Shown piece by piece: positions 4,457 to 32,977 of a stretch of DNA of 64,000 bases. Within the stretch, counting starts at the first letter, position 1. The number at the start of each line of letters is the position of its first letter. The notes below the pieces were generated by a model. That model saw only the letters and a program-made list of their open reading frames with translations, searched no databases and was not told the origin of the DNA. Source of the stretch: a bacterium (GTDB taxonomy: Bacteria; CAIWAD01); NCBI GenBank assembly GCA_030685015.1, contig JAUXWS010000087.1, positions 24,822-88,821 on the forward strand, given 5' to 3'. The position numbers were made by a program, and so were the translations under genes.

Positions 4457-4479
4457 TGTTTCCCCTGTTTGATCGTGAA

Positions 4480-5514
4480 CTAATCTGCCCTTCCTGCATT
4501 GGCGACTGGCATGATTAAAAAAGGAAGATAGTTTATTGTGCCCAACTGAGTTTCAACACGATGATCTATCATCCTTCCGGCAATCACGTCATCTTGTGTT
4601 GTTCCCCAGTAGTTCTCAGTGACATCAACAGTACCTGACACAACCTTTACAAAGTTCGCCTCGTTACTAATGTTGTTTTGCCTGATATTATTTCTACCAT
4701 ATAGCGCGCTATGAAAGTAAATAACATACCGTTCTTGTCCTGCGAAGTCGCAATATGTGATGTTTAGATCATTTCTTTGACGCTCATAGATATGGTAAAA
4801 ATTGGCGTAAAAATCTATATAAGTGGCATGCAAAAAATCCTCGCCATGACAATATAGGCCAACATTTGAGCAATGCGATATTTCTCCATTATCAATGATC
4901 ATTCCTGATCGAATATTATAAATTCCTATCTCACAGTTACTAATTGTGAATCTTGTCATAATCAATGAATCAACATTATTAGAGCAATACAGTCCATATT
5001 GGCTATTCATGATGGTCAAATCTTCAATTTCCGCCCTCGCCACGTTGTCGCAATAGATACTATAAATTTCGTTTTCATCCATGGTTAACCTGCTTAACAT
5101 CACCCGTTGAGCCGCACGGATCTCTAGGCCTATTTGTCCACCCTCGATGTCCACATTATCCAGCGCCAGCGTCCCTTCAGCATGCTCGTACTTTAAACTA
5201 TACCATGGCCCTGCACCCAAGCGCTTCACAACCAAGTGGGCATCGTCCTCCAAGAGTATCATAGGAGGCAACTTGCAAGTAGCCCCCTCAGCCAAGCGGA
5301 ATTCCACCTCGCCGCGGATCACCAATCCAGCGTCGTTCCCTTCATACAAAAACGCCAAATCACCTTCGATGGTTACGCGCTCGTTGGGGCCAAAGCTCGC
5401 CGCTGTGGTCTGATCGCCCAAGACGGTCACATTCCTCCACGTGGTTCCCTCATCCTTGTGACAGGCCATCGCAAGAAGCAGCAATGACAAGGGCATGATA
5501 TGACTGGCTCTCAT
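4480..5514 (-). CDS. right-handed parallel beta-helix repeat lipoprotein (pectate-lyase-like fold)
   Basis: Lipoprotein-type signal (LLLLAMAC) is followed by repeated N/D/G/I/Y-rich beta-helix turns (NVDIEGG, CDNVARAEIEDLTIMNSQYGLYCSNN...). AT-rich gene. Confidence 0.55.
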   Translation of the reverse strand: MRASHIMPLSLLLLAMACHKDEGTTWRNVTVLGDQTTAASFGPNERVTIEGDLAFLYEGNDAGLVIRGEVEFRLAEGATCKLPPMILLEDDAHLVVKRLGAGPWYSLKYEHAEGTLALDNVDIEGGQIGLEIRAAQRVMLSRLTMDENEIYSIYCDNVARAEIEDLTIMNSQYGLYCSNNVDSLIMTRFTISNCEIGIYNIRSGMIIDNGEISHCSNVGLYCHGEDFLHATYIDFYANFYHIYERQRNDLNITYCDFAGQERYVIYFHSALYGRNNIRQNNISNEANFVKVVSGTVDVTENYWGTTQDDVIAGRMIDHRVETQLGTINYLPFLIMPVANAGRAD

Positions 5515-6719
5515 AATCGGCTCCCGTGATTCATCTCGTCGCGCATTGTATTCTGCATTTGCGAGGCGCGCAAGACTCGGTTATAAAGCTGAAGTAGATT
5601 GAGCACCTGTCGATTCAGGTTGTAGGTCTCCAGCACTGTTTGGCGCCCCCGAGTGCCCATCGCCTGTCGACGTGATGGGTCGTCCAGCAATGTGATGATA
5701 GCCTGGGCGATGTCCCCTGGGCGGGAAGTGTCCACTACAAGGCCAGCTTGCGTATCGTTCAGGATCTTCACCAGCTCCGGAAAGTCCTGCGCTAGTACCG
5801 CCACCCCACAGAACATGTACTCGAAGATGCGGTTAGGGATGGTCACACGGTTGTTCACATTGTCTTCGTAAAAGACACAGCCAATGTGGGCGTTCATGAG
5901 GCGCATGAAATTATCCTTCCAGGGCAGCATGCCCTCCAAACATAGGTTCTGCTCCACACTAAGGTGGCGGGCCAGCTCCCGCAGCACCTGGTCGTATCCG
6001 GCTGGTTCATAACGGCCCACGAACGCGAACACCGTGTCCGGGTGTTTGGCCAATACCTCCGGCATAGCCTGGATGGTCTGGCGGCAGTGCCGATCATCCG
6101 AATGCGTGCCCGAAGTGTAGACAGTGGGCGGCAAGGGCTTGACCTCTGGAACCTCTACATCCACCAACCGCTTGATGTCCGGCACGTTCTGGACCAGAAC
6201 GCCATCTCGCCGCACGCCATCGGACATGGCCAGGATGCTGTCCGAAACGGCCACCACCCCCGCGAACTGGGCTATACACCAGCACTCTATGGCCGTGTAC
6301 ATGCCTCCGGCCAAGCGTGCCATCCATCCCGGCAAGCCCCACATGTGGAAGCGGACCACATGGTTTTCATGTTTGTCATAGATCACGGGTCGTCCCTGCC
6401 ACGCCAGAAGCACCATCCACGGTAACAAATCGGGGTCGTGGAAATGGTACACGTCAGCCTTCACGCGGCGGGCCAGACGCAGTGCATCCCAGCAACTGAG
6501 GATTCGGCGACGCAGGCCCCGCCGCTCGGGAATCGGCAGGATCTCCACGCCATTCAAGGTCTCGGCCTTGTCATGGGTAATGATAAGGGTTACGCGGTGG
6601 CCTATGCGCACCAAGGCCCGGCAGGTGCGCTCGTAGATCCGCGCATCGTACATGGGGTGCATGCTTGTGATCTGACAGATATGCAGGAGCGGGGTCACAG
6701 GGGAACGTTGTCCATTCAT
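5511..6719 (-). CDS. glycosyltransferase family 4 (GT1 superfamily)
   Basis: 402 aa. N-terminus ICQITSMHPMYDARIYERTCRAL...GHRVTLI. The C-terminal retaining-GT motif lies in the EX7E region. Confidence 0.75.
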   Translation of the reverse strand: MNGQRSPVTPLLHICQITSMHPMYDARIYERTCRALVRIGHRVTLIITHDKAETLNGVEILPIPERRGLRRRILSCWDALRLARRVKADVYHFHDPDLLPWMVLLAWQGRPVIYDKHENHVVRFHMWGLPGWMARLAGGMYTAIECWCIAQFAGVVAVSDSILAMSDGVRRDGVLVQNVPDIKRLVDVEVPEVKPLPPTVYTSGTHSDDRHCRQTIQAMPEVLAKHPDTVFAFVGRYEPAGYDQVLRELARHLSVEQNLCLEGMLPWKDNFMRLMNAHIGCVFYEDNVNNRVTIPNRIFEYMFCGVAVLAQDFPELVKILNDTQAGLVVDTSRPGDIAQAIITLLDDPSRRQAMGTRGRQTVLETYNLNRQVLNLLQLYNRVLRASQMQNTMRDEMNHGSRL

Positions 6720-11828: not shown

Positions 11829-12958
11829 CTGCGGCACTCCCCGAAGGTGCGGATGCGATCGATCACCCGATGAATGTCGGAGTCCGTCAAGGCACTTCCC
11901 GAGGGCAGGCAAAGGCCGCCTGCGAAGAGCTGCTCGGCCACGGTGCTGCCGAAGCAGCGACTGCCGCGGAAGACAGGCTGCAAATGCATGGGCTTCCACA
12001 CGGGCCGGGTCTCGATATCGTCCGTCTCCAAGTGCAGGCGCAAGGTCTCTGGATCCACACCAAACTTGTCGACGTCGATCTGGATCACGGTGAGCCAGCG
12101 GTTGTGACCAGCCCACGGAGCCTCGGGCATGAAAGTAATGCCCGGCACATTATCCAAGCCTAGGCGATAGGCTTCGAAGATCCGCCGCCGTGCGGCCACA
12201 CGCACGGGCAGCACACGCAATTGCGCCAAGCCGATGGAGGCCAACACGTTGCTCATGCGGTAATTGTAACCCCACTCCTTGTGCTCATAGTATGGCTTGG
12301 GCTCACGTGCTTGCTGCGATAAGTTACGGGCGCGGTCTATTAGGTCCCTATTCGCCGAACAGAGCATACCGCCGCCCGAGCTGGTGATGATCTTGTTGCC
12401 GTTGAAGGAGAAGATGGCGGCGTCCGCGTCCAGTCCCACAGGCCGTCCTTTGTATGTGGTCCCCACCGCCTCTGCGCAATCTTGTAACACGGGGATGCCA
12501 CGCTCGCGGCAAAGGGCCAGTATGGGGTCCATATCTGCAGGATGGCCGTACAAGTCCGTGGGAACTACGGCAGACACGCGACGCCCTTCCCGTTCACAGG
12601 TTGCTAGAGCCTCCGCAAGGACGTGTGAATCCATGCACCAGCTCTCTCGATCCGCGTCCACGAAGGCCAGCTCGGCCCCTTGGTACAAGGCAGAGGCGAT
12701 GCTGCCGATGAATGTAAGCGTGCTGGCTAGCACTGTGGTTCCCGGCCCCACCCCAACAAGGCGCATGGCTAGATGCATAGCGGCCGTGCCACTGCATAAA
12801 GCCAGTGCATTCCCATGATCAAGTAGTTCACAGAATTCAAGTTCGAAGGCGTCGACCATGGGCCCCAGGGGTGCAATGTAATTCGATTCAAAGGCCTGTT
12901 GAACCAGAGCCAGTTCGGTGCCATGCATATGAGGTGGCGAGAGAAATAGTCTAGCCAT
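11825..12958 (-). CDS. DegT/DnrJ/EryC1/StrS (PglE-like) PLP-dependent sugar aminotransferase
   Basis: 377 aa. FSFNGNKIITSSGGGML carries the PLP lysine. Motif EWGYNYRMSNVLASIGLAQL. Confidence 0.85.
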   Translation of the reverse strand: MARLFLSPPHMHGTELALVQQAFESNYIAPLGPMVDAFELEFCELLDHGNALALCSGTAAMHLAMRLVGVGPGTTVLASTLTFIGSIASALYQGAELAFVDADRESWCMDSHVLAEALATCEREGRRVSAVVPTDLYGHPADMDPILALCRERGIPVLQDCAEAVGTTYKGRPVGLDADAAIFSFNGNKIITSSGGGMLCSANRDLIDRARNLSQQAREPKPYYEHKEWGYNYRMSNVLASIGLAQLRVLPVRVAARRRIFEAYRLGLDNVPGITFMPEAPWAGHNRWLTVIQIDVDKFGVDPETLRLHLETDDIETRPVWKPMHLQPVFRGSRCFGSTVAEQLFAGGLCLPSGSALTDSDIHRVIDRIRTFGECRR

Positions 12959-12961
12959 GGT

Positions 12962-15304
12962 TCACCTTTTCACGTTATAACGATACTTGGGGAAGAAACT
13001 CTCAGGCACATCATCAATTCCGTGCACGATCTGGTTGCGCTCGCAAAGGGTTTCGTAGGCGGCCCCATCCACAACAATCCGTTGCGTGCTATACGGATAT
13101 ATCACTTGTGAGAAGCCAAGTTTGAATTGAAAAAGCTCGTCATCACGGCCACCCAATCCTCCTCCCAAGTTAAGCCATTCGGCACCAGATTCCGCATAAT
13201 ACTCAAAAGCTTTGTAAAACATGAGTTTCGATGGCGCCCAGTTGAGATGGTCATCCGTGGTGCCGCCAAGGTGATATTGGACAATACCGCCAGTTCGCAC
13301 GAATAGACCACCGGCGACGACCTTTCCCGCTGGGTTCAGAACCGATATCAAAGCGACATTCGGGCTCAGAACACGACGAAAATCATCGAAATATGCCCCA
13401 CTGAAGAAGTAATAGCGAGCCGCATTGACTCGGGTCATTGTCTGCGCGTATAGTTTTTGAAATACAGTATAATCTTCCCAGTGGTTAATTCGGACTTCGA
13501 AACCAGCCTTCTGGAGTTTTCGGATTGCACGTTTGTGGCTGTTCCGCATGCCCTGCTCAAAAGTGGCCAGATCTTGCCGAAGATTGATCATTACAGTGTT
13601 GCCATGCTTGAAGATCTCCCCCATGGCGCTGGCTGTCTCTGAGAAACAGCCCAGCAACGGGTGGTTGCGGAGAAATAGTGATACAATGTTATTCTGATAG
13701 CAGTAATGTTTTAGAGCCTTCATCAACTCATTCACTTGTGATTCGAAAACAGCATAGACTAGTGGTCCAGGATAGCCATATGGACTATATGCATCCCAAA
13801 GTCTATTTTCGGTAAGAGTCGTTGGTACGAGCCGCAGCAGAAGTGGAACGAACAATTCAGTTTCCCCCAATGTGATGTGCAGTGCAAGTGAACGAACTTC
13901 TTCTTCGCGTGCGCATAGCTTAAGATAGCCCGGCAGGTGATAGAAGTCATGGGGCAATCTTCCCAACACACGTTCCAGCTCCGCAGGTTGATCCAACAAA
14001 TCCCGAATCCTGCTTCGAATTCTTAAGGCGGGCACCCCGACTCGAGTTTCATATCCTTCACTGTCAACGATCTGCACGCTACCCGCTCCGAGTATTGTCC
14101 AGGGACGGATCCGCAGCTGAGGCAATACGCAGCATCCAACTCCTGCGAAAACACCCTCCTCAATATTGGCACCACCGCCCAAATGGACCCCAGGACACAA
14201 GTGGACATGATTCTTAATCAGGCAGTCATGGTCGACACTGCAGGAAGTGTTGAGAATCACGTTGCAACCGATAGATGCTCCAGTATTGACCACAACTCCG
14301 GCTGCAATGAAGGTGCCCATTCCTATTGGAACATCATCGGCAATGACCGCCGAAGGATGGATTACTGCTCGAACTTGCACTCCAGATTTAACCAACCAAT
14401 GAAACACTGTCATCCTTAATTGGTTGCTGCCAAAACCAATGATAACACAGTCGCAGCCACCTGCGCCAAACATAGTTGAAGCGATCGGGCCATACACTGG
14501 CCGGCCAAGGCAAGTCTGGCCATGTAACTGAACATCGTCATCTAGAAATCCGACCAGTTGCAGTTCTCCACCCGACTTCTCGGTGCACAGCACGGCATCC
14601 CCGATCACCCGGCCATGCCCGCCAGCCCCTAGCACCATAATCCTAGTCTTGGGCGAATGACCAATAAACTCGGGCATGGTGGCGTACCTTGGATGGCTGA
14701 TGCCCTCCCTTCTCACCACAAGAGAAACGGTCTTCCAAAGAATCCAAAAGTCAAGCATCAGGGAGTGGCGCTCAACGTACTCCACATCGTGCTCGAAACG
14801 CTCCTCCCAACTCAAGGAGTTGCGGCCTCGGATCTGCGCCAAACCCGTAATCCCGGGCTTCACCTCATGGCGACGGGCTTGGCGCGGGGAATAGCGTGGA
14901 ATGTACTCGACCATCAAGGGGCGCGGACCCACCAAGCTCATCTTACCACGCATCACCAACAGCAATTCAGGCAGCTCGTCAAGCGATGTGGAGCGCAGCC
15001 ACGCGCCAAACGGAGGAATGCGCTCCTCATCTGGCAGCAGGCGGCCCTGTGCGTCACGGGCGTCCGTCATGCTGCGGAACTTGACCAGTTCGAACAAAAG
15101 CCCATGCAGCCCCGGCCGTGTTTGCCTGAATAGAACCGGACGCCCTAGTTTAAATGCGATGGCCAGGGCCAATCCCATGAACATCGGCGCGAGCAACACA
15201 AGGGCGACCGCCGAGGCGCCGATATCAAACAAGCGTTTACCTGCCCGCCGGTATAGCCCTTGGCGCTCTAACCGCGCGGACGCCCAGCCGGAATCTGGAA
15301 TCAC
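12962..15304 (-). CDS. tri-domain fusion: bacterial sugar phosphotransferase (PglC/WbaP C-terminal type), NeuD/PglD-like hexapeptide N-acetyltransferase, and FemAB-related acyltransferase domain
   Basis: Domain 1 is KRLFDIGASAVALVLLAPMF...SLVGPRPL...PGITGLAQI. Domain 2 is MVLGAGGHGRVI...hexapeptide repeats. Domain 3 is ...AARYYFFSGAYFDD...VQYHLGGTTDDHLNWAPSKLMFYKAFEYYAESGAEWLNLGGG. The likely start is a GTG overlapping the upstream TGA (GTGA at 15301-15304). The long N-terminal extension in the ORF table overlaps the upstream gene. Confidence 0.7.
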   Translation of the reverse strand: MIPDSGWASARLERQGLYRRAGKRLFDIGASAVALVLLAPMFMGLALAIAFKLGRPVLFRQTRPGLHGLLFELVKFRSMTDARDAQGRLLPDEERIPPFGAWLRSTSLDELPELLLVMRGKMSLVGPRPLMVEYIPRYSPRQARRHEVKPGITGLAQIRGRNSLSWEERFEHDVEYVERHSLMLDFWILWKTVSLVVRREGISHPRYATMPEFIGHSPKTRIMVLGAGGHGRVIGDAVLCTEKSGGELQLVGFLDDDVQLHGQTCLGRPVYGPIASTMFGAGGCDCVIIGFGSNQLRMTVFHWLVKSGVQVRAVIHPSAVIADDVPIGMGTFIAAGVVVNTGASIGCNVILNTSCSVDHDCLIKNHVHLCPGVHLGGGANIEEGVFAGVGCCVLPQLRIRPWTILGAGSVQIVDSEGYETRVGVPALRIRSRIRDLLDQPAELERVLGRLPHDFYHLPGYLKLCAREEEVRSLALHITLGETELFVPLLLRLVPTTLTENRLWDAYSPYGYPGPLVYAVFESQVNELMKALKHYCYQNNIVSLFLRNHPLLGCFSETASAMGEIFKHGNTVMINLRQDLATFEQGMRNSHKRAIRKLQKAGFEVRINHWEDYTVFQKLYAQTMTRVNAARYYFFSGAYFDDFRRVLSPNVALISVLNPAGKVVAGGLFVRTGGIVQYHLGGTTDDHLNWAPSKLMFYKAFEYYAESGAEWLNLGGGLGGRDDELFQFKLGFSQVIYPYSTQRIVVDGAAYETLCERNQIVHGIDDVPESFFPKYRYNVKR

Positions 15305-23513: not shown

Positions 23514-24374
23514 CTACTCCTCCCCGATGGGCTGGAAGCGGAACTCCCCCAGCACGCGCTCCAGGCGCCCCTCGAAGCGCTCCAGCCCGTGGTACTGGCG
23601 CAGGCTCCGCCAGACGGGCAGGCGCAGGCGGGGCTGCTCCAGATCCAGCTCCCAGGGGTGGACGTAGAGATGGAAGCTGCGTCCGCCGCGGTTCCAGTCC
23701 CGCATGTGGGACAAGTTCCAGGCCATGGGCAGGGCGCGCAGCCAGAAGCCGCCTCCCCAGGCCAGCGGTTGCCCCAGGATGCGACGGCCGGCCAGCGGAT
23801 ACTCGCGGATGGATCCGGAGGGAATCGTCACCTGATGGGGGCGGCCCTCCACCAGGTCGCGGCGGCGCTCCGCCGGGACGCCGGCCAGCAGGCGCGGGGA
23901 GAGGCGCGCCGCCATCAGGCTGCTCGACCAGGCGAAGCCGGCCGAGCGCAGCGCTTCATAATGGCTTTCGAGGGGCGGCAGGCTGAAATCCGGCGCCCGG
24001 TATCCAGGTCCTCCGCCCCAGGCCGCCTCCCAGGGCCGCAGCAAGGCCAGGCTCTCCGCCAGGTCCCGCTGGAAGTCGCCCAGGTCCTGCCGGAAGACGC
24101 GGCGGTGGCCCAGCCCGTGGGATGCAATGCGGTGTCCCGCCGCGGCGATCTCGTCGATGAGGGCGGGATGCTGGCGCGCCACCTCGCCCAGGACGAAGAA
24201 GGTGGCCTGGGTCTGGAACTGGTGGAAGAGCCGCAGGAGGCGCCGGGTGCCATAGACCACGCGCTGGCCCAACTGCTCCTTGAGCGGCCGGTCTTCCAGC
24301 CGCCGCAGCCGGGCTTGCAGATTGGCCGCGTGGTGGGCGCTCTCCAGGTCGACGCTGAGGAAATGGAACCGCAT
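23514..24374 (-). CDS. polysaccharide deacetylase family protein
   Basis: HFLSVDLES...TFFVLGEVARQHPALIDEIAAAGHRIASHGLGHRR is a NodB homology domain. Confidence 0.75.
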   Translation of the reverse strand: MRFHFLSVDLESAHHAANLQARLRRLEDRPLKEQLGQRVVYGTRRLLRLFHQFQTQATFFVLGEVARQHPALIDEIAAAGHRIASHGLGHRRVFRQDLGDFQRDLAESLALLRPWEAAWGGGPGYRAPDFSLPPLESHYEALRSAGFAWSSSLMAARLSPRLLAGVPAERRRDLVEGRPHQVTIPSGSIREYPLAGRRILGQPLAWGGGFWLRALPMAWNLSHMRDWNRGGRSFHLYVHPWELDLEQPRLRLPVWRSLRQYHGLERFEGRLERVLGEFRFQPIGEE

Positions 24375-24424: not shown

Positions 24425-24632
24425 CCTGTCATTCTGCAGAACTGTCATCCTGAGGACTTGTCATCCCAGCGAAAGCTGGGATCCCATCCTTTTTTGACCA
24501 GCGCCACGCGTGGCACTTGGTGGCCCGCTATCCCGGCACCGGCGCCGTGAGGCGACGGGATGGGTGGTATGGATGATCCTCCCGCGGGATCCCAGCTTCC
24601 GCTGGGATGACATCAAATCTGAGATGACGGAC
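24425..24632. repeat. MITE-like module of nested inverted repeats in the 5' region of ychF
   Basis: A 26-bp near-perfect inverted repeat: gtcatcccagcgaaagctgggatccc (24461-24486) versus gggatcccagcttccgctgggatgac (24588-24613). Each copy is itself a hairpin (cccagc-GAAA-gctggg). Three direct TGTCATYC copies lie on the left (24428, 24444, 24460) and two GATGACA copies on the right. Confidence 0.6.
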
Positions 24633-24688
24633 CCTCCCCCTATATTGCATTTGCTCCTTTGGCATCGGCAAGCTCGCGGAAGGAATCC

Positions 24689-25774
24689 ATGGAAATCGGC
24701 ATCATCGGCCTGCCCCAGGCGGGCAAGACCACATTGTTCAACGCACTCACCGGCCTGGGGGTGGATCTGGGCTACGCCGGCGGCCGCAAGAGCGCCAACC
24801 GCGGCGTAGCCCGCGTCCCGGACGAGCGGCTGGAGCAGCTCTCCCGGCTTTTCAAGCCGCGCAGCACGGTCCACGCCACGGTCAACTACGTGGATCTGGG
24901 CGGCCTCTCCGGCGAGGGACGGCGCTCCAGCGGCTTTCCCGCCGACGTCCTGCAGGCGCTCAAACCCTGCGAGGCGCTTCTGCTGGTCCTCCGCGCGTTC
25001 GACGACCCGGCCCGCCCCCACCCCGACGGTCCGGCCGACCCGCAGCGGGACTTCCGCACCGCCCGCGACGAGTTCATCCTCTCCGACCTGGCCATCTGCG
25101 AGGGCCGCATCGAGCGGCTGGAGAAACAGATGATGAAGGTGAAGGAGAAGGATCAGGCCTTCGAGCTGGAGACGCTCAAGCTCTGCCACGCCGCGCTGGA
25201 GGAGGAGCGGCCCCTGCGCACCCTGGAGCTGGACGAGGCGCGCCGCCGGGTGCTGCGCTCCTACGCCTTCCTCAGCCTCAAGCCGCTCCTGGTCGTGCTC
25301 AACGTGCAGGACAACGCGGTGCGCGACGAGTCCCGGCTGGAGGCCCTGCGCCAGGCCAAGGCGGGCGGTGGTCAGCGTTTCCTCCAGGTGAGCGCCCGCA
25401 TCGAGATGGAGCTGGCGCAGCTGGACGAGGCGGAGGCCGGCGAGTTCCTGGCCGAGTACGGCATCCAGGAGCCGGCCCTTCATCGGGTGTTGCGGGAAAG
25501 CTTCGCCCTGCTCGACCTCGAGACCTTCTTCACCGTGGGCGAGGACGAGTGCCGGGCCTGGACCCTGCGCCGCGGCAGCACCGCCCCCATGGCCGCCGGG
25601 GTCATCCACAGCGACATCCAGAAAGGGTTCATCCGCGCCGAAGTGGTCCCCTCCGCCGAACTCCTGCGCCTGGGCAGCATGGCCGCCTGCAAGGAGAAGG
25701 GCAGCCTGCGCCTGGAAGGCCGCGAGTACCTGGTGCAGGAGGGGGAGGTTGTCCATTTCCGCTTCAATGTCTGA
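24689..25774 (+). CDS. ychF: redox-regulated ribosome-binding ATPase YchF (Obg family)
   Basis: MEIGIIGLPQAGKTTLFNALT Walker A motif and C-terminal TGS domain (GSTAPMAAGVIHSDIQKGFIRAEVV). Confidence 0.9.
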   Translation: MEIGIIGLPQAGKTTLFNALTGLGVDLGYAGGRKSANRGVARVPDERLEQLSRLFKPRSTVHATVNYVDLGGLSGEGRRSSGFPADVLQALKPCEALLLVLRAFDDPARPHPDGPADPQRDFRTARDEFILSDLAICEGRIERLEKQMMKVKEKDQAFELETLKLCHAALEEERPLRTLELDEARRRVLRSYAFLSLKPLLVVLNVQDNAVRDESRLEALRQAKAGGGQRFLQVSARIEMELAQLDEAEAGEFLAEYGIQEPALHRVLRESFALLDLETFFTVGEDECRAWTLRRGSTAPMAAGVIHSDIQKGFIRAEVVPSAELLRLGSMAACKEKGSLRLEGREYLVQEGEVVHFRFNV

Positions 25775-27539
25775 CCAGGCCGTGTTCCCATCCTCCTTCC
25801 GCGAGCACTGGCGCTGGCTGCGCCCCGCGGGCGAGCCGCCCGCGGACGGCCTCCTGCGGGCCTGGCCCGATCTGGGTCCCGCCGGTCGCTCGGCGCTGCT
25901 GTCGCTGCTGGCCGAGGCGCGCCGCCGCCTGGAGGAGCAGGCCGTCCCGGAAGCCGCTCCGATGGAGGCCGGCCGCCTGGCGCTGGCCCGACGCCTGCTG
26001 GACCGGGAGGAGGCCGCCCTGGCCCACCCGCCCGCTCGCGGCGAGGTGGTGGCGTTGGTCGCGGACACCCTGGAGTCGGATCTGGAGGCGGATCCCGCCC
26101 GGTGTCTGGAGCGGCTGCGGCGGCTGGACGAGCTGTCCCGGCCCCTCTTCGGCCCCGAGGCTCCCCCTTTGGGCGGGGACGGCGAGGAGGGACGCGCCGC
26201 CGCCCAGCGCCTGCGCGCCCTGGCCGCTCACCTGGGCCATCGTCTGCCCCGCCTGTCGGGCGGCGAAGCGGATCCCGCCCTGGGCCCCCTCGAAGAGCTG
26301 GCCCGCCGGGTGGAGGAGCTTCCCCCGACCCCCCCGCCCGCCGGTCCAGACAGGTGGGCGGAGATCGGGACCGAGGGTGGCTGGGAGCTGGCTCCCCTGT
26401 TGCAGCGGATCGAGGAGGAGCTGGGCCGCGTCCGCCGCGAGGCGGCGCGCCGCGCCCTCCTCCTCCGGCAACGCTTCCTGGGTTCGGCCGAGGCCCCCGG
26501 CGGCGACCTCCCCTGGATCCTGGCCCAGCTGGCCCTGGATCCGCCCCGCGCCGAGCACTGGCGCTGGCTGCACCAGCGGCTGGTCGGCGAGCTGGCCCGC
26601 CACCTGGACCGCCTGGGCCTTGCCGCGGGCCGCCTGGCTGTGCGGCTCTCGCCCGGCCTGTCGCCCGACCAGCCGGATCCCGCCTGTGACGGGTCGGGCG
26701 CGGCCCTCGGCCTGGCCGACCTCTCCCTGCTGGCGCCGGAGGAGCTGGAATCATTCCTGGAATCATGCGGCCACGCCCTCCTGCCGCTCCTTGTCGCCCG
26801 GGAAGGATTGCCCGGTCGCGCCTGGCGCTTGGCCGCAGCCCGGGAGGAAGGTGGTGACCCGGCGCGCGATGTGGTGGCCGTCCTTCTGCGCCCGGCGGAC
26901 CTGGAAGCCTGGGCCCGCTGGGCCGGGGACTGGGCCCTCCAGGCCGGCTGGCAGGCGGGCGACCTGCGTGTGCGCCTCTGCCAGGCCCGCCGCGAGGAGC
27001 TGGACTGGCTGCTGGCGCGCGCCGACCTGGAGCGCCGGCTGGGCAGTCGCGGCGAGGAGGAAATCCGCGAGCGCCTCTGCCGCGAGGCCGCCTTGTCCGC
27101 GCGGGCGGGCGAGGCCGCCTGGCGGCGCCTGGTCAGGGAGCCGGGCAGCCAGGCCGCCGCCGCCCTGCGTCTGCTCCATTTCCGCGAGGCGGGCCGCCGC
27201 TGGCGCCGTGCGCATCGGGAGGCCGCCTCGGCCGACTGGTTCCATCTGTTGGCAGCCTGCGCCCCCTTCCCGCTCGCCTGGCTGCGTCAGCATCTGCACC
27301 AGCTCCCGCCGCCGGGCCTGGCCTGGCGGCCACAGCCGCCCGCTCTCGTCAAGCCCGTCACGCCGCGGGGGGAGGGCCTGCTCAGCGAGATGGAGGAGCG
27401 GCTGGCCGCGCTGGGCCGCATCCGGCGCGAGGACCTGGAGGCCGGCCGCGAGTTCGACGGCGCCCCCGCCGGGCCGCCCACAGCCGATCCCCCGGGGCGA
27501 GATGGGTCGGAGGAAGAGGTCGATGCGTCAGCTGAGTGA
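25767..27539 (+). CDS. hypothetical protein, 590 aa, Arg/Leu/Ala/Glu-rich, no recognisable domain
   Basis: ATG overlaps the ychF stop (ATGTCTGA) and the 3' end overlaps the ABC exporter start by 17 nt. Very high GC3 codon usage in this frame is consistent with real coding. EHWRWL motif occurs twice. Confidence 0.55.
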   Translation: MSDQAVFPSSFREHWRWLRPAGEPPADGLLRAWPDLGPAGRSALLSLLAEARRRLEEQAVPEAAPMEAGRLALARRLLDREEAALAHPPARGEVVALVADTLESDLEADPARCLERLRRLDELSRPLFGPEAPPLGGDGEEGRAAAQRLRALAAHLGHRLPRLSGGEADPALGPLEELARRVEELPPTPPPAGPDRWAEIGTEGGWELAPLLQRIEEELGRVRREAARRALLLRQRFLGSAEAPGGDLPWILAQLALDPPRAEHWRWLHQRLVGELARHLDRLGLAAGRLAVRLSPGLSPDQPDPACDGSGAALGLADLSLLAPEELESFLESCGHALLPLLVAREGLPGRAWRLAAAREEGGDPARDVVAVLLRPADLEAWARWAGDWALQAGWQAGDLRVRLCQARREELDWLLARADLERRLGSRGEEEIRERLCREAALSARAGEAAWRRLVREPGSQAAAALRLLHFREAGRRWRRAHREAASADWFHLLAACAPFPLAWLRQHLHQLPPPGLAWRPQPPALVKPVTPRGEGLLSEMEERLAALGRIRREDLEAGREFDGAPAGPPTADPPGRDGSEEEVDASAE

Positions 27540-29259
27540 GATCTTCCGCCTGCTGGTCCGCTACCGTTCCCGCCTGCTGGTGGGCGCCTTCTTCGTGCTG
27601 GTCACCAACACCATCCTCATCTTCGGCCCGCGCGTGCTGGGCCTGGCCGTGGACGACCTGCGCGACGGCCTGGTGCGCCACTCCCTGGGCTGGTACCTGG
27701 GCTGGCTGCTGGCCATCAGCCTGGGCCAGGGCTTGGCCCGCTTCGCCATGCGCCGCATCCTCATCGGCACTTCGCGGCGGGTGGAGCGCGACCTGCGCGC
27801 CACCTACCTGGAGCGGTTGCTCGAGCTGCCGCGGAGCTTCTACGCCCGGCGCTACACGGGCGACATCATGAGCCGCGCCACCCAGGACATCGAGAACGTG
27901 CGCATGGCGGCCGGACCGGCCCTCATGTACTCGCTGGACACGATCCTGCTCAGCGCCTACGCCCTCACCATGATGCTGCTCATCCACCCCGCCCTCACCG
28001 GCATCGTGCTGGCCCTGCTGCCCGTCATCAGCGGCCTGGTCTGGTGGCTCTCCCACCGCATCCACCTGGCCACAATGGATGCCCAGCGCTGCTTCGGGCG
28101 CGTCTCCACCGTCGTGCAGGAGGCCCTCTCCGGCATCCGCGTCATCCAGGCCTACGTCCGCGAGGAGCATCAGGCCCGCCGCTTCGACGACCAGCTGGTG
28201 GAGTACCGTCGCCTGCAGATGCGGCTGGTGGGCCTCCAAAGCGCCTTCCGGCCGCTGCTCGGCCTGCTCTTCGCCCTGGGACAGGGCCTGGTTCTGTGGC
28301 AGGGCGGACGCCTCATCGTCGAGGGTGCCCTCACCCTGGGCGACTACGTGGCCTTCTCCACCTACCTGACCCTGCTGTCCTGGCCGATGGTGGCCACCGG
28401 CTGGAGTCTCAGCCTGCTGCAGCGCGGCAGCGCCGGCATGCGACGGCTCAACGAGGTGCTGGGCGCCTCCGTCGAGCTGGCCTGGGGCGGCGCCCGGCCC
28501 CGCCTGCAAGCTCGCCTGAGCGTGCAGGGACTGGGCTTCCGCTACCCGGACGCGGAGGCGGACGCCCTCCAGGACCTCAGCTTCGACCTGGAGCCGGGTC
28601 AGGCCATGGGCATCGTGGGCCTGACCGGCTGCGGCAAATCCACCCTGCTGCGCCTGCTGGCGAGGCAGGCCGATCCCGACCGCGGTCGCATCCTGCTGGA
28701 CGGCCATGACATCCGCAGCCTCGATCCCGGTCTGCTGCGCTCCATGATGACGGTCGTGCCCCAGGACGCCTTCCTCTTCAGCGCCACCCTGGCCGGCAAC
28801 GTGGCCTATGGGCGGCCCGACGCCCCCCGCGCCGAGCTGGAGCGCGCCGCGGCGGACAGCCGCCTCGAGCAGGACCTGCCCCAGTTGCCAGCCGGTTGGG
28901 AGACCCTGGTGGGCGAGCGGGGCGTGACCCTCTCCGGCGGACAGAAGCAGCGGGCCACCATCGCCCGCGCCCTGGTGCCCGAGGCCCCCATCCTCTTGCT
29001 GGACGATGCCCTCTCCGCCATCGACACGCGCACCGAGGAGGCCCTTGTCCACCGCCTGCGCGACGTGATGGCCCGGCGCACCGTGCTCATCGCCTCCCAC
29101 CGGCTCTCCATCATGCGGGAGGTGGACGTCATCATCGTGCTCGACCAGGGCCGCATGGTCGAGCGCGGCACCCATGACGAGCTGGTGAAGCGGGGCGGCC
29201 TCTACGCCGAGCTGTGGCGCCGCCAGGAGCTGCGCAGCGCCCTCGAGGAGGCGGCATGA
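27523..29259 (+). CDS. ABC transporter permease/ATP-binding protein (type I exporter half-transporter, subunit 1)
   Basis: Six-TM domain followed by Walker A (GLTGCGKST), signature (LSGGQKQRATIARAL) and Walker B (ILLLDDALSAID) motifs. Confidence 0.85.
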   Translation: MRQLSEIFRLLVRYRSRLLVGAFFVLVTNTILIFGPRVLGLAVDDLRDGLVRHSLGWYLGWLLAISLGQGLARFAMRRILIGTSRRVERDLRATYLERLLELPRSFYARRYTGDIMSRATQDIENVRMAAGPALMYSLDTILLSAYALTMMLLIHPALTGIVLALLPVISGLVWWLSHRIHLATMDAQRCFGRVSTVVQEALSGIRVIQAYVREEHQARRFDDQLVEYRRLQMRLVGLQSAFRPLLGLLFALGQGLVLWQGGRLIVEGALTLGDYVAFSTYLTLLSWPMVATGWSLSLLQRGSAGMRRLNEVLGASVELAWGGARPRLQARLSVQGLGFRYPDAEADALQDLSFDLEPGQAMGIVGLTGCGKSTLLRLLARQADPDRGRILLDGHDIRSLDPGLLRSMMTVVPQDAFLFSATLAGNVAYGRPDAPRAELERAAADSRLEQDLPQLPAGWETLVGERGVTLSGGQKQRATIARALVPEAPILLLDDALSAIDTRTEEALVHRLRDVMARRTVLIASHRLSIMREVDVIIVLDQGRMVERGTHDELVKRGGLYAELWRRQELRSALEEAA

Positions 29260-31076
29260 ACGGGATGGGCATGGGCGGGGGCATGCGCCATGGCCGCGCC
29301 TCCGACAGCGAGCGCGGACTGGACGGCCGCCTCCTGCGCCGTCTCACCGCCTACCTGCGGCCGCACTGGCGGGGAGCCCTCCTCGCCCTGCTCATGATCC
29401 TGGGCGCCGCCGCCCTGGAGACGGCCGTGCCCCTGGTGACGCGCCACGCCATCGACGTGCATGTGGCGGGGCGCGACCTGGCCGGGCTCTTCCGATCCCT
29501 CCTGGCCTTCCTGGGACTCTCCCTGGGCGCCTTCCTGCTGCGCTACGCCCAGCAGCTGACCACGGGCTGGATCGGCCAGAGCATCGTCCTCAAGCTGCGC
29601 GGCCGGGTCTTCGCCCGCGTCCTGCGCCTGCCCCTGGCCTGGTTCGACCGCCACCCCGTCGGTCAGGTGATGAGCCGCATCACCAACGACGTGGAATCCT
29701 TGAACGAGCTGTTCACGGGCGGCCTCATCCTCATCTTCCAGGACATCCTGCTGCTGGTCGCCATCGCCGCCGCCCTCCTCTGGATGGACTGGCGCCTGGC
29801 TTTGGTCCTCTTCGCCGTGGTGCCCTTCATCTTCCTGGCCAGCTTCCAGTTCAAACGGTTGACCCGGGCCGCCTTCCGCCGCGTGCGGGCCCTGGTGGGC
29901 GAAGTGACGGGCTTCCTGCAGGAGACGATCACGGGCATGGCCGTGGTCCAGCTCTTCCGGCGGGAGCGCGGCACCCGGGAGCGCTTCGCCCGCATGAACG
30001 ACGAGCTGATGCGGGAGAATGTCCGCACCATCTTCTACTTCGCCGTCTTCTTCCCGCTGATGGAGCTGCTGGGCAGCGTGGCGACGGCGGCCATCATCTG
30101 GGCGGCGGCGGGACGCCTGCTGGAGGGCAGCCTGAGTTTCGGCGCCCTGGTCGCCTTCCTGGCCTACGCCGATCGCTTCTTCCGCCCCATCCGCGACCTG
30201 GCCGAGAAGTACAACATCCTGCAGAGCGCCATGGCCGCCTCCGAGCGTGTCTTCGAACTGCTGGACGAGCCGGCCGCCCTGGCTGGTGGCCTGGTGGGCG
30301 CGCCCGGCGGTCCGCCCGCTCCGCCACGGCGGGGAGAGGTGGTGTTCGAGGGGGTCTGTTTCGCCTATGAAGGGGAGAACTGGGTGCTGCAGGACCTCTC
30401 CTTCCGCATTGAAGCCGGCACCAGCACGGCCCTGGTGGGCTGGACGGGCGCCGGCAAGAGCAGCGTGGCCGGCCTGCTGCTGCGCTACTACGAGTTCCAG
30501 CGCGGACGAATCCTGGTGGACGGCGTGGACATCCGCCAGTGGGATGCGGCCGCCCTGCGCGGGCGCATGGCCATCGTCCTCCAGGATGTCTTCCTCTTCT
30601 CCGGGACGGTGGCCGACAACATCCGCCTGGGGCGCGAGCTGCCGGTGGGGGCGGTGGAGGCGGCGGCGCGGCGCACCGGCCTGGACCGCCTGGCCGGACA
30701 GCGCGCCCTGGGCTATGAGGAGCCGGTGGGGGAACGGGGTCAGCTGCTCAGCGGCGGCCAGCGCCAGCTGGTCAGCTTCTCGCGGGCCCTGGCCGGGGAT
30801 CCGGCCATCCTGGTGCTGGACGAGGCGACCAGCAGCGTGGACTCCTTGTCGGAAGAGCTGATCCAGCAGGCCATCGCCCAAATGATGAGCGGACGCAGCT
30901 CTCTGGTCATCGCCCATCGCCTGTCCACCATCCGCGCCGCCGACCAGATCCTGGTCCTGCACCAGGGCCGGCTGGTGGAGCGGGGCCGCCACGACGAGCT
31001 GCTGGCGGCGCAGGGCTTCTACCATCGCCTCTGGCAGCTGGAGCAGCCGGTGGGGGAGGCGGACCGTGCAGCTTGA
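29256..31076 (+). CDS. ABC transporter permease/ATP-binding protein (type I exporter half-transporter, subunit 2)
   Basis: ATGA overlap with subunit 1. Walker A (GWTGAGKSS), signature (LSGGQRQLVSFSRAL) and Walker B (ILVLDEATSSVD) motifs. Confidence 0.85.
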   Translation: MNGMGMGGGMRHGRASDSERGLDGRLLRRLTAYLRPHWRGALLALLMILGAAALETAVPLVTRHAIDVHVAGRDLAGLFRSLLAFLGLSLGAFLLRYAQQLTTGWIGQSIVLKLRGRVFARVLRLPLAWFDRHPVGQVMSRITNDVESLNELFTGGLILIFQDILLLVAIAAALLWMDWRLALVLFAVVPFIFLASFQFKRLTRAAFRRVRALVGEVTGFLQETITGMAVVQLFRRERGTRERFARMNDELMRENVRTIFYFAVFFPLMELLGSVATAAIIWAAAGRLLEGSLSFGALVAFLAYADRFFRPIRDLAEKYNILQSAMAASERVFELLDEPAALAGGLVGAPGGPPAPPRRGEVVFEGVCFAYEGENWVLQDLSFRIEAGTSTALVGWTGAGKSSVAGLLLRYYEFQRGRILVDGVDIRQWDAAALRGRMAIVLQDVFLFSGTVADNIRLGRELPVGAVEAAARRTGLDRLAGQRALGYEEPVGERGQLLSGGQRQLVSFSRALAGDPAILVLDEATSSVDSLSEELIQQAIAQMMSGRSSLVIAHRLSTIRAADQILVLHQGRLVERGRHDELLAAQGFYHRLWQLEQPVGEADRAA

Positions 31077-31083
31077 GCCGATC

Positions 31084-32106
31084 ATGCTGCTGGCGGACGG
31101 GGTGACCGCCTCCTTCTGGGTCCTGCTCATGGCCGGCCTGCTGGGGGGGCTCACGGCCGGCCTCTTCGGCGTGGGCGGCGGCGTCATCGTCACGCCCCTG
31201 CTCATCTCCCTGGGCGTGCCGCCCCGCATCGCCGCCGGCAGCATGAACGTGGCCATCATCGCCAATGCGGCCGACTCGCTGGTGCACGACCTGCCGCGGC
31301 GCCGGGTCGACTGGCGGCTGGGTCTGTTCATGGGGGCGGCCGCCGTGGCGGGCGGGCAAGCGGGGACATTTTGGCTGGGCCGCCTGGGCAAGCCGGAATT
31401 GGTGGACCTCATGATCCGCGCCGGCTTCCTTGTCCTGCTGGCCTACATGGCCTATCACCTGCTGCGCAAGAAGCTGTCCCGCGGGGACACCGCCCGCCGC
31501 TGGCTCTTCCACATGCCCCTGCGCTACCAGAGTCCCTGGGAGGAGGCGCCGGTCAGCGCCCTGGGTCCCGTCCTGGCCTCGCTGGGGGGCGGCCTGGTGG
31601 CATCCTTGCTGGGAGTGGGCGGCGGCATCTTCTACGTGCCGGTCCTCCTGGCCCTCTTCCACCGCCCCCTGCAGGAGCTGGTCCCCGTCAGCCAGATCGC
31701 CGTCCTGCTGGGCACCTTGTCCGTCAGCACGGGCCATGTGCTGCACACGGGCTTCATCGATCCGCGCCTCTCCCTCATCCTGATCACGGCGGGCAGCGTG
31801 GGCACGGTGGTGGGCACGCGGCTCAAGTCGCACCTGGAGAGCCGGCTGTTGGAGCGCCTGCTCGCCCTGGTGCTCCTGGCCGCCGCGCTGCGCCTCGCCC
31901 TGCCCCTGATCGGGTTGGAGGCATCCCCCGCGCGGGCCGCGACGACCCTGGGGCGGGACTGGCTGCGGCCCTTCGCCGACTGGTGCGCCCGCGATCCGCT
32001 TCACCTTTGGCTGGGCACGGTGGGCGTGGCCCTGGGCATGGCACCGCTTCTCTCCTGGCTGCAGCATGCCCTCCTGGACCGCTTGCGCCGACGGAGCGCC
32101 ACCTGA
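31084..32106 (+). CDS. TauE/SafE (TSUP, DUF81) family anion-exporter permease
   Basis: Duplicated 4-TM halves each carrying a GVGGG motif (LFGVGGGVIVTPLL and LLGVGGGIFYVPVL). Confidence 0.75.
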   Translation: MLLADGVTASFWVLLMAGLLGGLTAGLFGVGGGVIVTPLLISLGVPPRIAAGSMNVAIIANAADSLVHDLPRRRVDWRLGLFMGAAAVAGGQAGTFWLGRLGKPELVDLMIRAGFLVLLAYMAYHLLRKKLSRGDTARRWLFHMPLRYQSPWEEAPVSALGPVLASLGGGLVASLLGVGGGIFYVPVLLALFHRPLQELVPVSQIAVLLGTLSVSTGHVLHTGFIDPRLSLILITAGSVGTVVGTRLKSHLESRLLERLLALVLLAAALRLALPLIGLEASPARAATTLGRDWLRPFADWCARDPLHLWLGTVGVALGMAPLLSWLQHALLDRLRRRSAT

Positions 32107-32688: not shown

Positions 32689-32717
32689 TTGACGCCGCCA
32701 GACCGGCCACATAATAT
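32689..32717 (+). promoter_or_regulatory. near-consensus sigma70-type promoter (TTGACG, 17-bp spacer, TAATAT) overlapped by a 23-bp perfect palindrome
   Basis: The -35 element is 32689-32694 and the -10 element is 32712-32717. The palindrome AATATTTCATG-C-CATGAAATATT (32713-32735) covers the -10 and the predicted transcription start site. Confidence 0.5.
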
Positions 32718-32977
32718 TTCATGCCATGAAATATTTCAACAAGACCTTGGATTGTCACAAGTTCGACATGCTGACACATTGTTAGTTATGACGTATTCTG
32801 GCAGATTTGCGGGCGCCCTGTCGTATGTCAATACAAGCGGAACGGGCGGTTCAGCCTGGCTTTCCTTTGTCAATCAGGGTGCTGCGGTTTTTGCCGCTTC
32901 GGTGGCTTCGCGCGGACCATCCCGGGGCTTCGCCGGCGGATGCTCGCGGAAGGGACTCAACCATGTCAGGAGGATCC

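What the first reader, a model, noticed from the sequence alone, without database searches (positions are those of the whole stretch)
25767..27539. 590-aa uncharacterised Arg/Leu/Ala/Glu-rich protein translationally coupled between ychF and a heterodimeric ABC exporter
The start overlaps the ychF stop (ATGTCTGA) and the stop overlaps the first ABC exporter start. Codon usage is strongly biased, so it is very likely expressed as part of a ychF-hyp-ABC-ABC-TauE transcription unit. The sequence is low-complexity and helical-looking with a repeated EHWRWL motif. I recognise no conserved domain. Coupling a ribosome-associated ATPase to a dedicated exporter through an unknown protein is unusual. It may indicate an uncharacterised export or assembly system.
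Basis: partly seen in the sequence, partly recalled or inferred. Interest (0 to 1): 0.55.

Follow-up and report, generated by a model that had tools for sequence, protein, structure and literature searches.

The report
Zinc-site-less DUF885-like protein in ychF operon
The "unknown" 590-residue protein is a real, conserved gene: a very diverged, probably non-catalytic relative of the DUF885 putative metallopeptidase family. It is found in a small set of uncultured bacteria (one is labelled Candidatus Delongbacteria), usually between ychF and a two-gene ABC exporter. This makes it a modest curiosity, not evidence for a new export system.

Summary
ATG 25767 to TGA 27539 encodes a 590-aa, all-helical, cytoplasmic protein (X). 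Its start overlaps the ychF stop by 8 nt and its end overlaps the first ABC exporter gene by 17 nt. The five genes ychF-X-ABC1-ABC2-TauE all overlap.

It is not domain-less. The AlphaFold model (pLDDT 85) matches only the three solved DUF885 structures, over their full length. A profile of the family hits DUF885 (3u24, E 1.6e-10; hhalign 96%). Two distant family members pass Pfam's DUF885 threshold; the window protein does not (15.7 bits against 32.4).

All 17 family members replace the canonical H-E-x-x-P-G-H motif with (A)R-E-x-L-P-G-R. They have no signal peptide. They also carry a family-specific C-terminal motif, LAALGRIxxEDLxAGxEFD, with 75% mean pairwise identity against 34% for the body.

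The gene order is kept in every relative within this lineage, even where X is only about 30% identical. The two most distant members lack ychF and ABC genes nearby.

Best reading: a non-catalytic DUF885-fold binding or adaptor protein that docks on a conserved partner through its tail. The partner is untested. The low-complexity composition comes from the high GC content, and the EHWRWL repeat is not significant. Interest is modest.

The parts
24619..24646 (+). Promoter-like site (CTGAGA-16-TATATT) upstream of ychF. It is a candidate promoter for the five-gene unit.
   Evidence: Consensus scan only. No terminator-like site above chance lies inside the unit. The next AT-richer intergenic region with promoter-like sites is at 32689-32799.
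24689..25774 (+). ychF (redox-regulated ATPase YchF), 361 aa
   Evidence: TIGR00092 scores 286.6 bits against a cutoff of 279.2. Pfam hits are YchF-GTPase_C and MMR_HSR1. The start ATG 24689 follows GGAAGGAA. Identity to orthologues in related loci is 64-86%.
25767..27539 (+). X: 590-aa cytoplasmic DUF885-like protein (the finding). The DUF885-fold body is residues about 1-512, followed by a Pro-rich linker (513-537), a conserved motif (538-564) and an acidic disordered tail (565-590).
   Evidence: Foldseek against PDB: the only significant hits are the DUF885 structures 3u24, 3o0y and 3iuk, with E 2.5e-9 to 2.6e-5 and TM 0.47-0.57 over about 560-600 alignment columns. The family profile hits 3u24 at E 1.6e-10. 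hhalign against the canonical DUF885 P0024 gives 95.9% probability. Pfam DUF885 scores 15.7 bits for this protein, 90.6 for relative P0019 and 39.6 for P0020. There is no hydrophobic segment: the maximum 19-residue Kyte-Doolittle mean is 1.08.
26796..26819 (+). Degenerate metal-site motif A-R-E-G-L-P-G-R (residues 344-351). It aligns with the canonical DUF885 motif H-E-x-x-P-G-H.
   Evidence: The alignment to 3u24 'IHEAIPGH' and P0024 'IHEGVPGH' comes. The canonical motif is present in 3u24, 3o0y, 3iuk and P0024. No member of the 17-sequence family has His at either position, and the Glu is itself lost in P0013 and P0017.
26898..26924 (+). D-L-E-A-W-A-R-W-A (residues 378-386), the counterpart of the canonical E-G-W-A-x-Y-x-E block
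   Evidence: The Trp (W382) is invariant. The first acidic residue is kept as Asp in most members. The last Glu of the canonical block is lost.
27378..27458 (+). Family-specific C-terminal motif LLSEMEERLAALGRIRREDLEAGREFD (residues 538-564), predicted as helix-Gly-helix
Evidence: Mean pairwise identity is 0.75, against 0.34 for the body. Ten invariant positions were found in the 17 sequences and in the tail-only alignment. It lies beyond the end of the DUF885 domain. It occurs only once per locus, always at the C-terminus of X homologues. It has no significant match in PDB sequences.
27523..29259 (+). ABC1: half-transporter (TMD+NBD), 578 aa, with a degenerate Walker B (LLLDD)
   Evidence: Pfam hits are ABC_membrane and ABC_tran. 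The best NCBIfam hits, SmdA and MsbA-related, are all below their cutoffs.
29256..31076 (+). ABC2: half-transporter, 606 aa, with a canonical Walker B (LVLDE)
31066..32106 (+). TauE/SafE (TSUP) family membrane protein, 346 aa
   Evidence: Pfam TauE, E 3.9e-40

Best explanation
X is a cytoplasmic, highly diverged member of the DUF885 fold. DUF885 is a family of putative zinc metallopeptidases in the Peptidase_MA clan, whose solved members are mostly annotated as lipoproteins.

In X and its whole small family, both histidines of the canonical H-E-x-x-P-G-H motif are arginines. There is no signal peptide. A new, nearly invariant C-terminal helix-Gly-helix motif (LAALGRIxxEDLxAGxEFD) has been added on a flexible linker.

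The most likely mechanism (inferred, not shown) is that X no longer cleaves anything. It would use the retained cleft, or the tail, or both, as binding modules. The tail would dock on a strongly conserved partner, and X would act as an accessory or adaptor subunit for the products of its own operon: the asymmetric ABC exporter or YchF.

The gene is translated by termination-reinitiation coupling from ychF. No Shine-Dalgarno sequence sits at a usable distance, and the start overlaps the ychF stop by 8 nt.

Sub-confidences:
- Real gene: above 0.98.
- DUF885 homologue: about 0.9.
- No zinc-dependent catalysis: about 0.75.
- Acts with the operon partners through the tail: about 0.35.

The overall confidence of 0.55 is for the statement as a whole.
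For: **Shown: homology to DUF885**
- The fold matches only DUF885 structures, with a sharp gap to the next hit (E 2.5e-9 against 0.09).
- Sequence-profile and profile-profile homology support the same assignment.
- Distant members pass the Pfam threshold.

**Shown: loss of the metal site**
- Canonical HE..PGH and EGWA.Y.E blocks are present in all three solved structures.
- Both His positions are non-His in all 17 family members: Arg at both in most, with Thr, Ser, Ala or Ser at one position in P0013, P0016 and P0017.
- The catalytic-position Glu is not invariant.

**Shown: selection and the tail motif**
- Purifying selection, dN/dS 0.27.
- The tail motif is at 75% identity against 34% for the body.
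- The motif is restricted to this family.

**Shown: operon structure**
- The operon order is kept in L001-L006, L008-L012, L014-L019 and the P0016 contig. Across these, X diverges to 30-34% identity against 55-72% for the ABC genes and 64-86% for YchF.
- Every ABC1 orthologue found at 77% identity or more whose upstream sequence was captured is preceded by X. The single 62% match (L033, a 3-kb contig) showed no X or ychF hit.

**Inferred**
- A motif conserved this much more strongly than the body implies a conserved binding partner.
Against: - The two most distant members (L007/P0019 and L013/P0020-like) keep R-E..P-G-R and the tail motif but have no ychF or ABC gene in the sequence held. That is a 6.1-kb contig for L007 and 8 kb on each side for L013. 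Both instead sit downstream of a DinB_2 gene. The tail's partner therefore need not be encoded next door.
- In the P0016 genome the genes do not overlap (59-nt and 42-nt gaps), so translational coupling is not universal.
- The tail is modelled at only moderate confidence, and no interaction was computed or measured.
- The function of canonical DUF885 is itself unproven. No functional study was found. 'Loss of catalysis' therefore rests on the clan assignment (PMC12572635) and on the motif.
- The window protein itself scores below Pfam's DUF885 threshold.
Confidence: 0.55

Rival explanations
1. Operon passenger. X is a lineage-specific cytoplasmic DUF885 derivative whose function, whatever it is, has nothing to do with YchF or the exporter. 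The tight packing would simply reflect a compact, inherited gene order in one lineage.
For: All loci with this order share other neighbours too (deacetylase, acyltransferase, epimerase), so they are one lineage inheriting one arrangement. The distant members L007 and L013 lack the order. X evolves much faster than its neighbours, at 30-34% identity against 55-86%.
Against: The order ychF-X-ABC1-ABC2-TauE survives where upstream genes have changed. A PspA/DUF4178/DUF350/spermine-synthase block is inserted upstream of ychF in the P0016 contig, and no deacetylase is found in L011 or L012. It also survives where YchF has dropped to 64% identity. Overlapping stop/start junctions on both sides are kept in the high-GC members.
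Confidence: 0.25
2. X is still an enzyme. The cleft would use a different catalytic arrangement, for example other acidic residues binding a metal, or the two arginines binding an anionic substrate such as a carboxylate, phosphate or sulfonate.
For: The region around the former site is better conserved than the rest of the body (0.46 against 0.34). Invariant residues include D258, E263, R401, D420 and W382, with R351 nearly invariant. Another His-less DUF885 fragment (P0023, 'AREVTPGR', 94 bits to DUF885) exists outside this family.
Against: Both presumed metal ligands are gone in every member. The Glu next to them is replaced in P0013 (TQ) and P0017 (AR). No alternative His/Cys cluster is conserved.
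Confidence: 0.15
3. X is the cargo of the adjacent ABC exporter, recognised through its conserved C-terminal region as type I secretion substrates are.
For: X has a conserved C-terminal motif followed by an acidic disordered tail. It sits immediately upstream of an ABC exporter. Canonical DUF885 proteins are often extracytoplasmic: 3u24 and 3o0y are annotated as lipoproteins, and P0024 has a signal peptide.
Against: The unit contains no membrane-fusion protein or outer-membrane factor. The ABC proteins have only ABC_membrane and ABC_tran domains, with no C39 or C39-like N-terminal domain. From my own knowledge, type I signals are poorly conserved in sequence, whereas this motif is nearly invariant. 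Distant members carry the motif without an adjacent exporter. No RTX or other repeats were detected.
Confidence: 0.04
4. The ORF is an artefact of high-GC sequence and is not a gene.
For: In this stretch another frame is open for 1236 codons and every frame has at most 4 stops.
Against: Full-length homologues exist down to 26% identity, including one with ordinary composition. dN/dS is 0.27. The fold prediction is confident and matches solved structures. The start (MSD/MSE) and length are conserved.
Confidence: 0.01

Closest known systems
DUF885 (Pfam PF05960, Peptidase_MA clan); solved structures 3U24 (Shewanella), 3O0Y (Colwellia), 3IUK (Arthrobacter)
   Same: - It has the same two-lobed all-helical fold over the full length (TM 0.47-0.57, Foldseek probability 1.0).
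- Sequence homology is detectable by profile.
- It keeps the P-G of the HE..PGH block, the W of EGWA, the D of the following helix, the later P-G block and the C-terminal F-H helix.
- Its size is similar, about 550-600 aa.
   Different: - Both His of H-E-x-x-P-G-H are Arg, and the EGWAxYxE block is reduced to D-x-W-A.
- It has no signal peptide or lipobox, whereas 3u24 and 3o0y are annotated as lipoproteins and P0024 has a signal peptide.
- It has an extra linker, a conserved 27-residue motif and an acidic tail.
- It scores below the Pfam gathering threshold (15.7 against 32.4 bits).
- It sits in a ychF/ABC operon.
- The function of DUF885 itself has not been established in the literature searched.
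M3/M32-type gluzincin peptidases (oligoendopeptidase F 2H1N, Pz-peptidase A 3AHM)
   Same: They belong to the same clan as DUF885 according to Pfam (PMC12572635). There is weak structural resemblance (TM 0.27-0.30).
   Different: The matches are not significant (E 1-2.6). X has no HExxH motif and no zinc ligands.
Asymmetric heterodimeric ABC exporters with one degenerate ATP site (TM287/288, BmrCD, LmrCD type; named from my own knowledge)
   Same: This applies to the neighbours ABC1/ABC2, not to X. They are two adjacent, overlapping half-transporter genes. ABC1 has Asp in place of the Walker-B catalytic Glu, and ABC2 is canonical.
   Different: To my knowledge, none of those characterised systems has a dedicated cytoplasmic accessory protein, or a ychF gene, in its operon. 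The substrate here is unknown. All NCBIfam equivalog cutoffs are missed.

Membership tests
DUF885 (PF05960) | Pfam HMM score at or above the gathering threshold (32.4 bits) | tested here: not met
   The window protein scores 15.7 bits, E 0.012, over residues 330-495 only. Family members P0019 (90.6 bits) and P0020 (39.6 bits) do pass. P0016 (27.1) and P0015 (24.0) do not. Membership is therefore transitive, through relatives.
DUF885 (PF05960) | Significant profile-level sequence homology to bona fide members | tested here: met
   The family profile A2 against PDB sequences hits 3u24 at E 1.6e-10. hhalign of A2 against P0024 (itself 383 bits to DUF885) gives 95.9% probability, E 5e-9, over 269 columns.
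DUF885 (PF05960) | DUF885 three-dimensional fold | tested here: met
DUF885 (PF05960) | Conserved H-E-x-x-P-G-H(H/Y) and E-G-W-A-x-Y-x-E blocks | tested here: not met
   These blocks are present in 3u24, 3o0y, 3iuk and P0024. X has A-R-E-G-L-P-G-R and D-L-E-A-W-A-R-W-A. No member of the 17-sequence family has His at either position.
Peptidase_MA zinc metallopeptidases | Two His and one Glu zinc ligands plus a catalytic Glu | tested here: not met
   The His ligand positions are Arg, and the catalytic-position Glu is not invariant. Metal binding itself cannot be measured here.
Type I secretion substrate / system | ABC transporter together with a membrane-fusion protein and an outer-membrane factor; substrate with a C-terminal signal, often with RTX repeats | tested here: not met
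   The unit is ychF-X-ABC1-ABC2-TauE only. The ABC proteins have no extra N-terminal domain. No HlyD- or TolC-type genes are adjacent, and X has no repeats. TIGR01846 scores 344 and 341 bits, below the 725 cutoff.
Heterodimeric ABC exporter (neighbours) | Two different half-transporters (TMD+NBD) encoded side by side, one with a degenerate site | tested here: met
   Walker B is LLLDD in ABC1 and LVLDE in ABC2, and the genes share an ATGA overlap.
YchF (neighbour) | NCBIfam TIGR00092 equivalog cutoff | tested here: met
   286.6 bits against a cutoff of 279.2
Anti-phage defence systems (PADLOC) | Match to any PADLOC model | tested here: not met
   There is no hit for X, YchF or TauE. ABC1 and ABC2 give only generic ABC-ATPase similarity.

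The most novel reading that the evidence does not exclude
X is a dedicated adaptor built from a dead peptidase. Its nearly invariant C-terminal helix-Gly-helix peptide would dock on YchF (or the ribosome), while the Arg-lined former active-site cleft holds a ligand or the nucleotide-binding domains of the asymmetric ABC exporter. This would physically link a stress- and redox-sensing translation-associated ATPase to export. No such accessory for heterodimeric ABC exporters, and no such YchF partner, has been described as far as I know. A sulfur or thiol theme is conceivable but purely speculative. It rests on TauE in the operon, a DinB_2 thiol-transferase-like gene next to the distant members, and the 'redox-regulated' YchF.
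Probability: 0.1. Interest if true: 0.6.

Novelty: new variant of a known kind. Interest (0 to 1): 0.3.

Why it matters
If the reading is right, this small family is a clean natural example of a peptidase fold turned into a non-catalytic module. The metal ligands are swapped for arginines, the signal peptide is lost and a docking peptide is gained. The family is fixed in an operon with a universally conserved but poorly understood ATPase (YchF) and an ABC exporter of unknown substrate.

It gives DUF885, which has three structures and no known function, a contrasting His-less branch that could help define what the cleft binds. It also offers a testable candidate partner for YchF or for a heterodimeric exporter.

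The practical weight is limited. The family has about a dozen clusters in 1.84 billion representatives. All of them come from uncultured organisms, and the parent family is itself uncharacterised.

Tried and rejected
- Pfam and NCBIfam at default thresholds gave nothing for X. Only a relaxed Pfam scan and scans of distant relatives revealed DUF885.
- A second word-indexed homologue search, using the 17-sequence alignment, returned only the nine proteins already known.
- A metagenome scan with ABC1 added no new kind of context. Close ABC1 relatives whose upstream sequence was captured were all preceded by X, and the rest were generic ABC proteins at 35% identity or less.
- A profile of the C-terminal motif against PDB sequences gave only a 12-residue match to HI0257 (1IMU), E 0.34. 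I treat it as chance.
- A regex search for the motif in six frames of the window and all 50 loci found it only at the X C-terminus.
- Rfam and tRNA scans of the window found nothing.
- PADLOC gave no defence-system match.
- Literature searches for DUF885, PF05960 and Delongbacteria found no functional study of the family.
- I rejected the EHWRWL repeat as a sign of internal duplication, because 20% of shuffles give a repeated 6-mer and the sites are unrelated positions in the fold.
- I rejected low complexity as a functional feature, because it is absent in the relative P0016.
- A second AlphaFold run with the deeper alignment raised the tail motif only to pLDDT about 66. This neither shows nor excludes the tail docking onto the body.
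Full report
**1. What is in the sequence**

The + strand carries an ORF from ATG 25767 to TGA 27539, encoding 590 aa. I call its product X.

The junctions are as follows:
- The start lies in ATGTCTGA. TGA 25772-25774 ends a gene that passes the YchF equivalog cutoff: TIGR00092, 286.6 bits against 279.2. That gene's true start is ATG 24689, giving 361 aa.
- No Shine-Dalgarno sequence lies at a usable distance from ATG 25767. The nearest G-rich run ends 17 nt upstream. Termination-reinitiation coupling from ychF is therefore the likely way X is translated (inference).
- The next gene, an ABC half-transporter, starts at ATG 27523, after GGAGG at 27509. It is in another frame and overlaps X by 17 nt.
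- ABC1 and ABC2 share ATGA at 29256-29259.
- ABC2 and a TauE-family gene overlap by 11 nt.
- A promoter-like site lies at 24619-24646. No terminator-like site above chance lies inside the unit.

**2. Is it a gene?**

ORF length alone proves nothing in this stretch. It is 75-79% GC. The ABC1 frame stays open for 1236 codons, back through the whole of X. The other frames have only 2-4 stops.

Four lines of evidence show that the frame is real:
- GC by codon position is 0.86/0.57/0.88, and synonymous codon choice is identical to that of the neighbours.
- Homologues of 540-661 aa exist with conserved starts (MSD/MSE) and identities from 98% down to 26%.
- Against a 98%-identical copy, X shows 17 synonymous and 12 non-synonymous differences, dN/dS 0.27. 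The matching values are 0.11 for ychF and 0.17 for ABC1.
- AlphaFold gives a confident all-helical model with only 10 or 17 sequences in the alignment: pLDDT 79 and then 85, pTM 0.79 and then 0.83.

The striking composition is a by-product of GC content. A, L, R, E, P and G make up 75% of residues, with one Lys, no Asn and no Tyr. The family member P0016 has an ordinary composition.

The duplicated EHWRWL (residues 12-17 and 263-268) is not significant. Twenty per cent of shuffles of the protein contain some repeated 6-mer. In relatives the two sites are separate conserved positions: W-x-W-L-x-P near the N-terminus and P-E-H-W in the middle.

The protein has no hydrophobic segment and no signal peptide.

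**3. What it is**

Default Pfam and NCBIfam scans are empty.

An exhaustive profile search of 1.84 billion representative proteins found only 17 hits:
- About a dozen are full-length relatives.
- Two are weak hits to proteins that turned out to be canonical DUF885: P0024 scores 383 bits to PF05960, and P0023 scores 94 bits.

Four independent tests then agree that X is a DUF885 homologue:
- Foldseek against the PDB, with either model, returns as its only significant hits the three solved DUF885 proteins. These are 3u24, 3o0y and 3iuk, at E 2.5e-9 to 2.6e-5, probability 1.0, TM 0.47-0.57, aligned over about 560-600 columns. The next hit is at E about 0.1.
- A profile of the 17-member family hits the 3u24 sequence at E 1.6e-10.
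- hhalign of the family against P0024 gives 95.9% probability.
- The distant members P0019 and P0020 pass Pfam's DUF885 threshold (90.6 and 39.6 bits against 32.4). X itself reaches only 15.7 bits.

Pfam places DUF885 in the zinc-metallopeptidase clan Peptidase_MA (stated in PMC12572635). I found no paper that establishes a function for DUF885.

**4. How it differs from DUF885**

The three solved structures and P0024 all carry H-E-(A/G)-x-P-G-H-(H/Y) and E-G-W-A-x-Y-x-E. The alignments place X's A-R-E-G-L-P-G-R (residues 344-351) and D-L-E-A-W-A-R-W-A (378-386) on these blocks.

Across all 17 family members:
- Neither histidine position is ever His. Both are almost always Arg.
- The Glu between them is lost in two members, P0013 and P0017.
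- The structural residues of the blocks (P349, G350, W382, G398, D420) are invariant.

The presumed metal site is therefore gone while its scaffold is kept. This is the usual signature of a pseudoenzyme (inference).

Two more differences stand out.
- The family has no signal peptide. By contrast, 3u24 and 3o0y are annotated as lipoproteins, and P0024 has an obvious signal peptide.
- After the DUF885 body ends near residue 512, there is a Pro-rich linker, a 27-residue motif (LLSEMEERLAALGRIRREDLEAGREFD, residues 538-564) and an acidic disordered tail.

That motif is by far the most conserved part of the protein. Mean pairwise identity is 0.75, against 0.34 for the body, and ten positions are invariant. 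It is predicted as helix-Gly-helix with a hydrophobic face, at moderate confidence. It occurs nowhere else in the window or in the 50 loci fetched. It has no significant match among PDB sequences.

**5. Context**

The order ychF-X-ABC1-ABC2-TauE is present in every relative within this lineage for which enough DNA was available. These are L001-L006, L008-L012, L014-L019 and the P0016 contig.

Record labels for these loci vary. P0008 and L012 (a 3.7-Mb chromosome) are labelled Candidatus Delongbacteria. Others are labelled 'uncultured bacterium', 'Acetofilamentum sp.' or 'uncultured Bacteroidaceae bacterium'.

The order persists in several changed backgrounds:
- Where X has fallen to 30-34% identity, while YchF stays at 64-86% and the ABC proteins at 55-86%.
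- Where the genes upstream of ychF have changed.
- Where the genes no longer overlap, in the P0016 contig.

X is the fastest-evolving gene of the unit.

The exporter is an asymmetric heterodimer. ABC1 has LLLDD at Walker B and ABC2 has LVLDE. Neither reaches any NCBIfam equivalog cutoff, so the substrate is unknown.

The unit borders a polysaccharide-biosynthesis cluster of about 22 kb.

The two most distant members are 40% identical to each other. They are P0019 on L007 and a P0020-like gene on L013. Both keep R-E..P-G-R and the tail motif. Neither has ychF or ABC genes in the sequence held. Both follow a DinB_2 gene.

**6. Mechanism and rivals**

I commit to this reading: X is a non-catalytic DUF885-fold protein. 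It binds something through its retained cleft, and it docks on a conserved partner through its C-terminal peptide. In this lineage it most likely serves the products of its own operon.

What is shown:
- Homology to DUF885.
- Loss of the motif histidines.
- Cytoplasmic character, judged by sequence.
- Conservation of the tail.
- Conservation of the gene order.

What is inferred:
- Loss of catalysis.
- The tail acting as a docking peptide.
- The identity of the partner.

The tail is almost unchanged even in relatives without the operon. This argues that its partner is something universally conserved, such as YchF or the ribosome, more than the faster-evolving exporter. That is only an argument from conservation.

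The rivals, with my probabilities:
- An unrelated passenger gene in an inherited gene order (0.25).
- A still-active enzyme with a different chemistry (0.15).
- Cargo of the exporter (0.04). There is no membrane-fusion or outer-membrane component, no C39-type domain, and the motif is too conserved for a type I signal.
- A GC artefact (0.01 or less).

**7. Novelty and verdict**

It is a new, very diverged, His-less, cytoplasmic branch of a known but uncharacterised family. It has a new C-terminal motif and a lineage-specific operon.

I rate it a new variant of a known kind, with interest 0.3. The idea of a YchF-to-exporter coupling system is not excluded. It has no direct support beyond gene order.

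Noticed in passing
window 24458-24613: An element of about 155 nt lies in the divergent intergenic region between the deacetylase gene (- strand, 23514-24374) and ychF. It is bounded by roughly 27-nt inverted repeats, and each arm is itself a hairpin (GTCATCCCAGCGAAAGCTGGGATCCC). As RNA it folds far better than shuffles (z = -5.2). One more copy of the hairpin core lies downstream of TauE in L008 (9947-9965, - strand). It looks like a dispersed REP/MITE-like repeat of this lineage.
   Followed up: partly
window 1914-24374: This is a large polysaccharide-biosynthesis cluster. It includes a flippase-like gene, a pyruvyl transferase, GT4 glycosyltransferases, two DegT aminotransferases, an 874-aa sugar-transferase/PglD/FemAB-like fusion, two DUF3473 deacetylases, epimerases, a UDP-GlcNAc 2-epimerase and an acyltransferase. 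Segments 2000-6000 and 12000-14000 are only 47-53% GC, against 66-72% elsewhere, which suggests acquired DNA.
   Followed up: partly
window 27523-31076: The two ABC half-transporters form an asymmetric pair. ABC1 has Asp instead of the catalytic Glu after Walker B (LLLDD). ABC2 is canonical (LVLDE). ABC2 has a Gly/Met-rich, basic N-terminal extension of about 40 residues.
   Followed up: partly
window 25549-29259: The reading frame of ABC1 stays open for about 2 kb upstream of its real start, giving a 1236-codon ORF right through X. This is an example of spurious long ORFs in 76% GC DNA. Gene callers in related loci sometimes extend ABC1 upstream for this reason, for example the 591-aa calls in L003 and L004.
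   Followed up: yes
L007 1792-2322 and L013 7272-7796: In the two most distant family members, which are 40% identical to each other, a DinB_2 superfamily gene lies just upstream of the X homologue. In L007 it is separated only by an IS1595-type transposase gene. In L013 a 2H-phosphoesterase gene follows.
   Followed up: partly
protein P0023 (200-aa fragment from the profile search): This is a clear DUF885 fragment (94 bits) from outside the X family. It also has Arg at both His positions ('AREVTPGR') yet keeps the canonical EGWAQYAE block. His-less DUF885 variants may therefore be more widespread than this family.
   Followed up: no
window 25767-27539: X is the most GC-rich stretch of the window, at 0.75-0.79 against about 0.68-0.72 around it. 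This is because of its very high first-position GC (0.86). It is also the fastest-diverging gene of the unit.
   Followed up: yes
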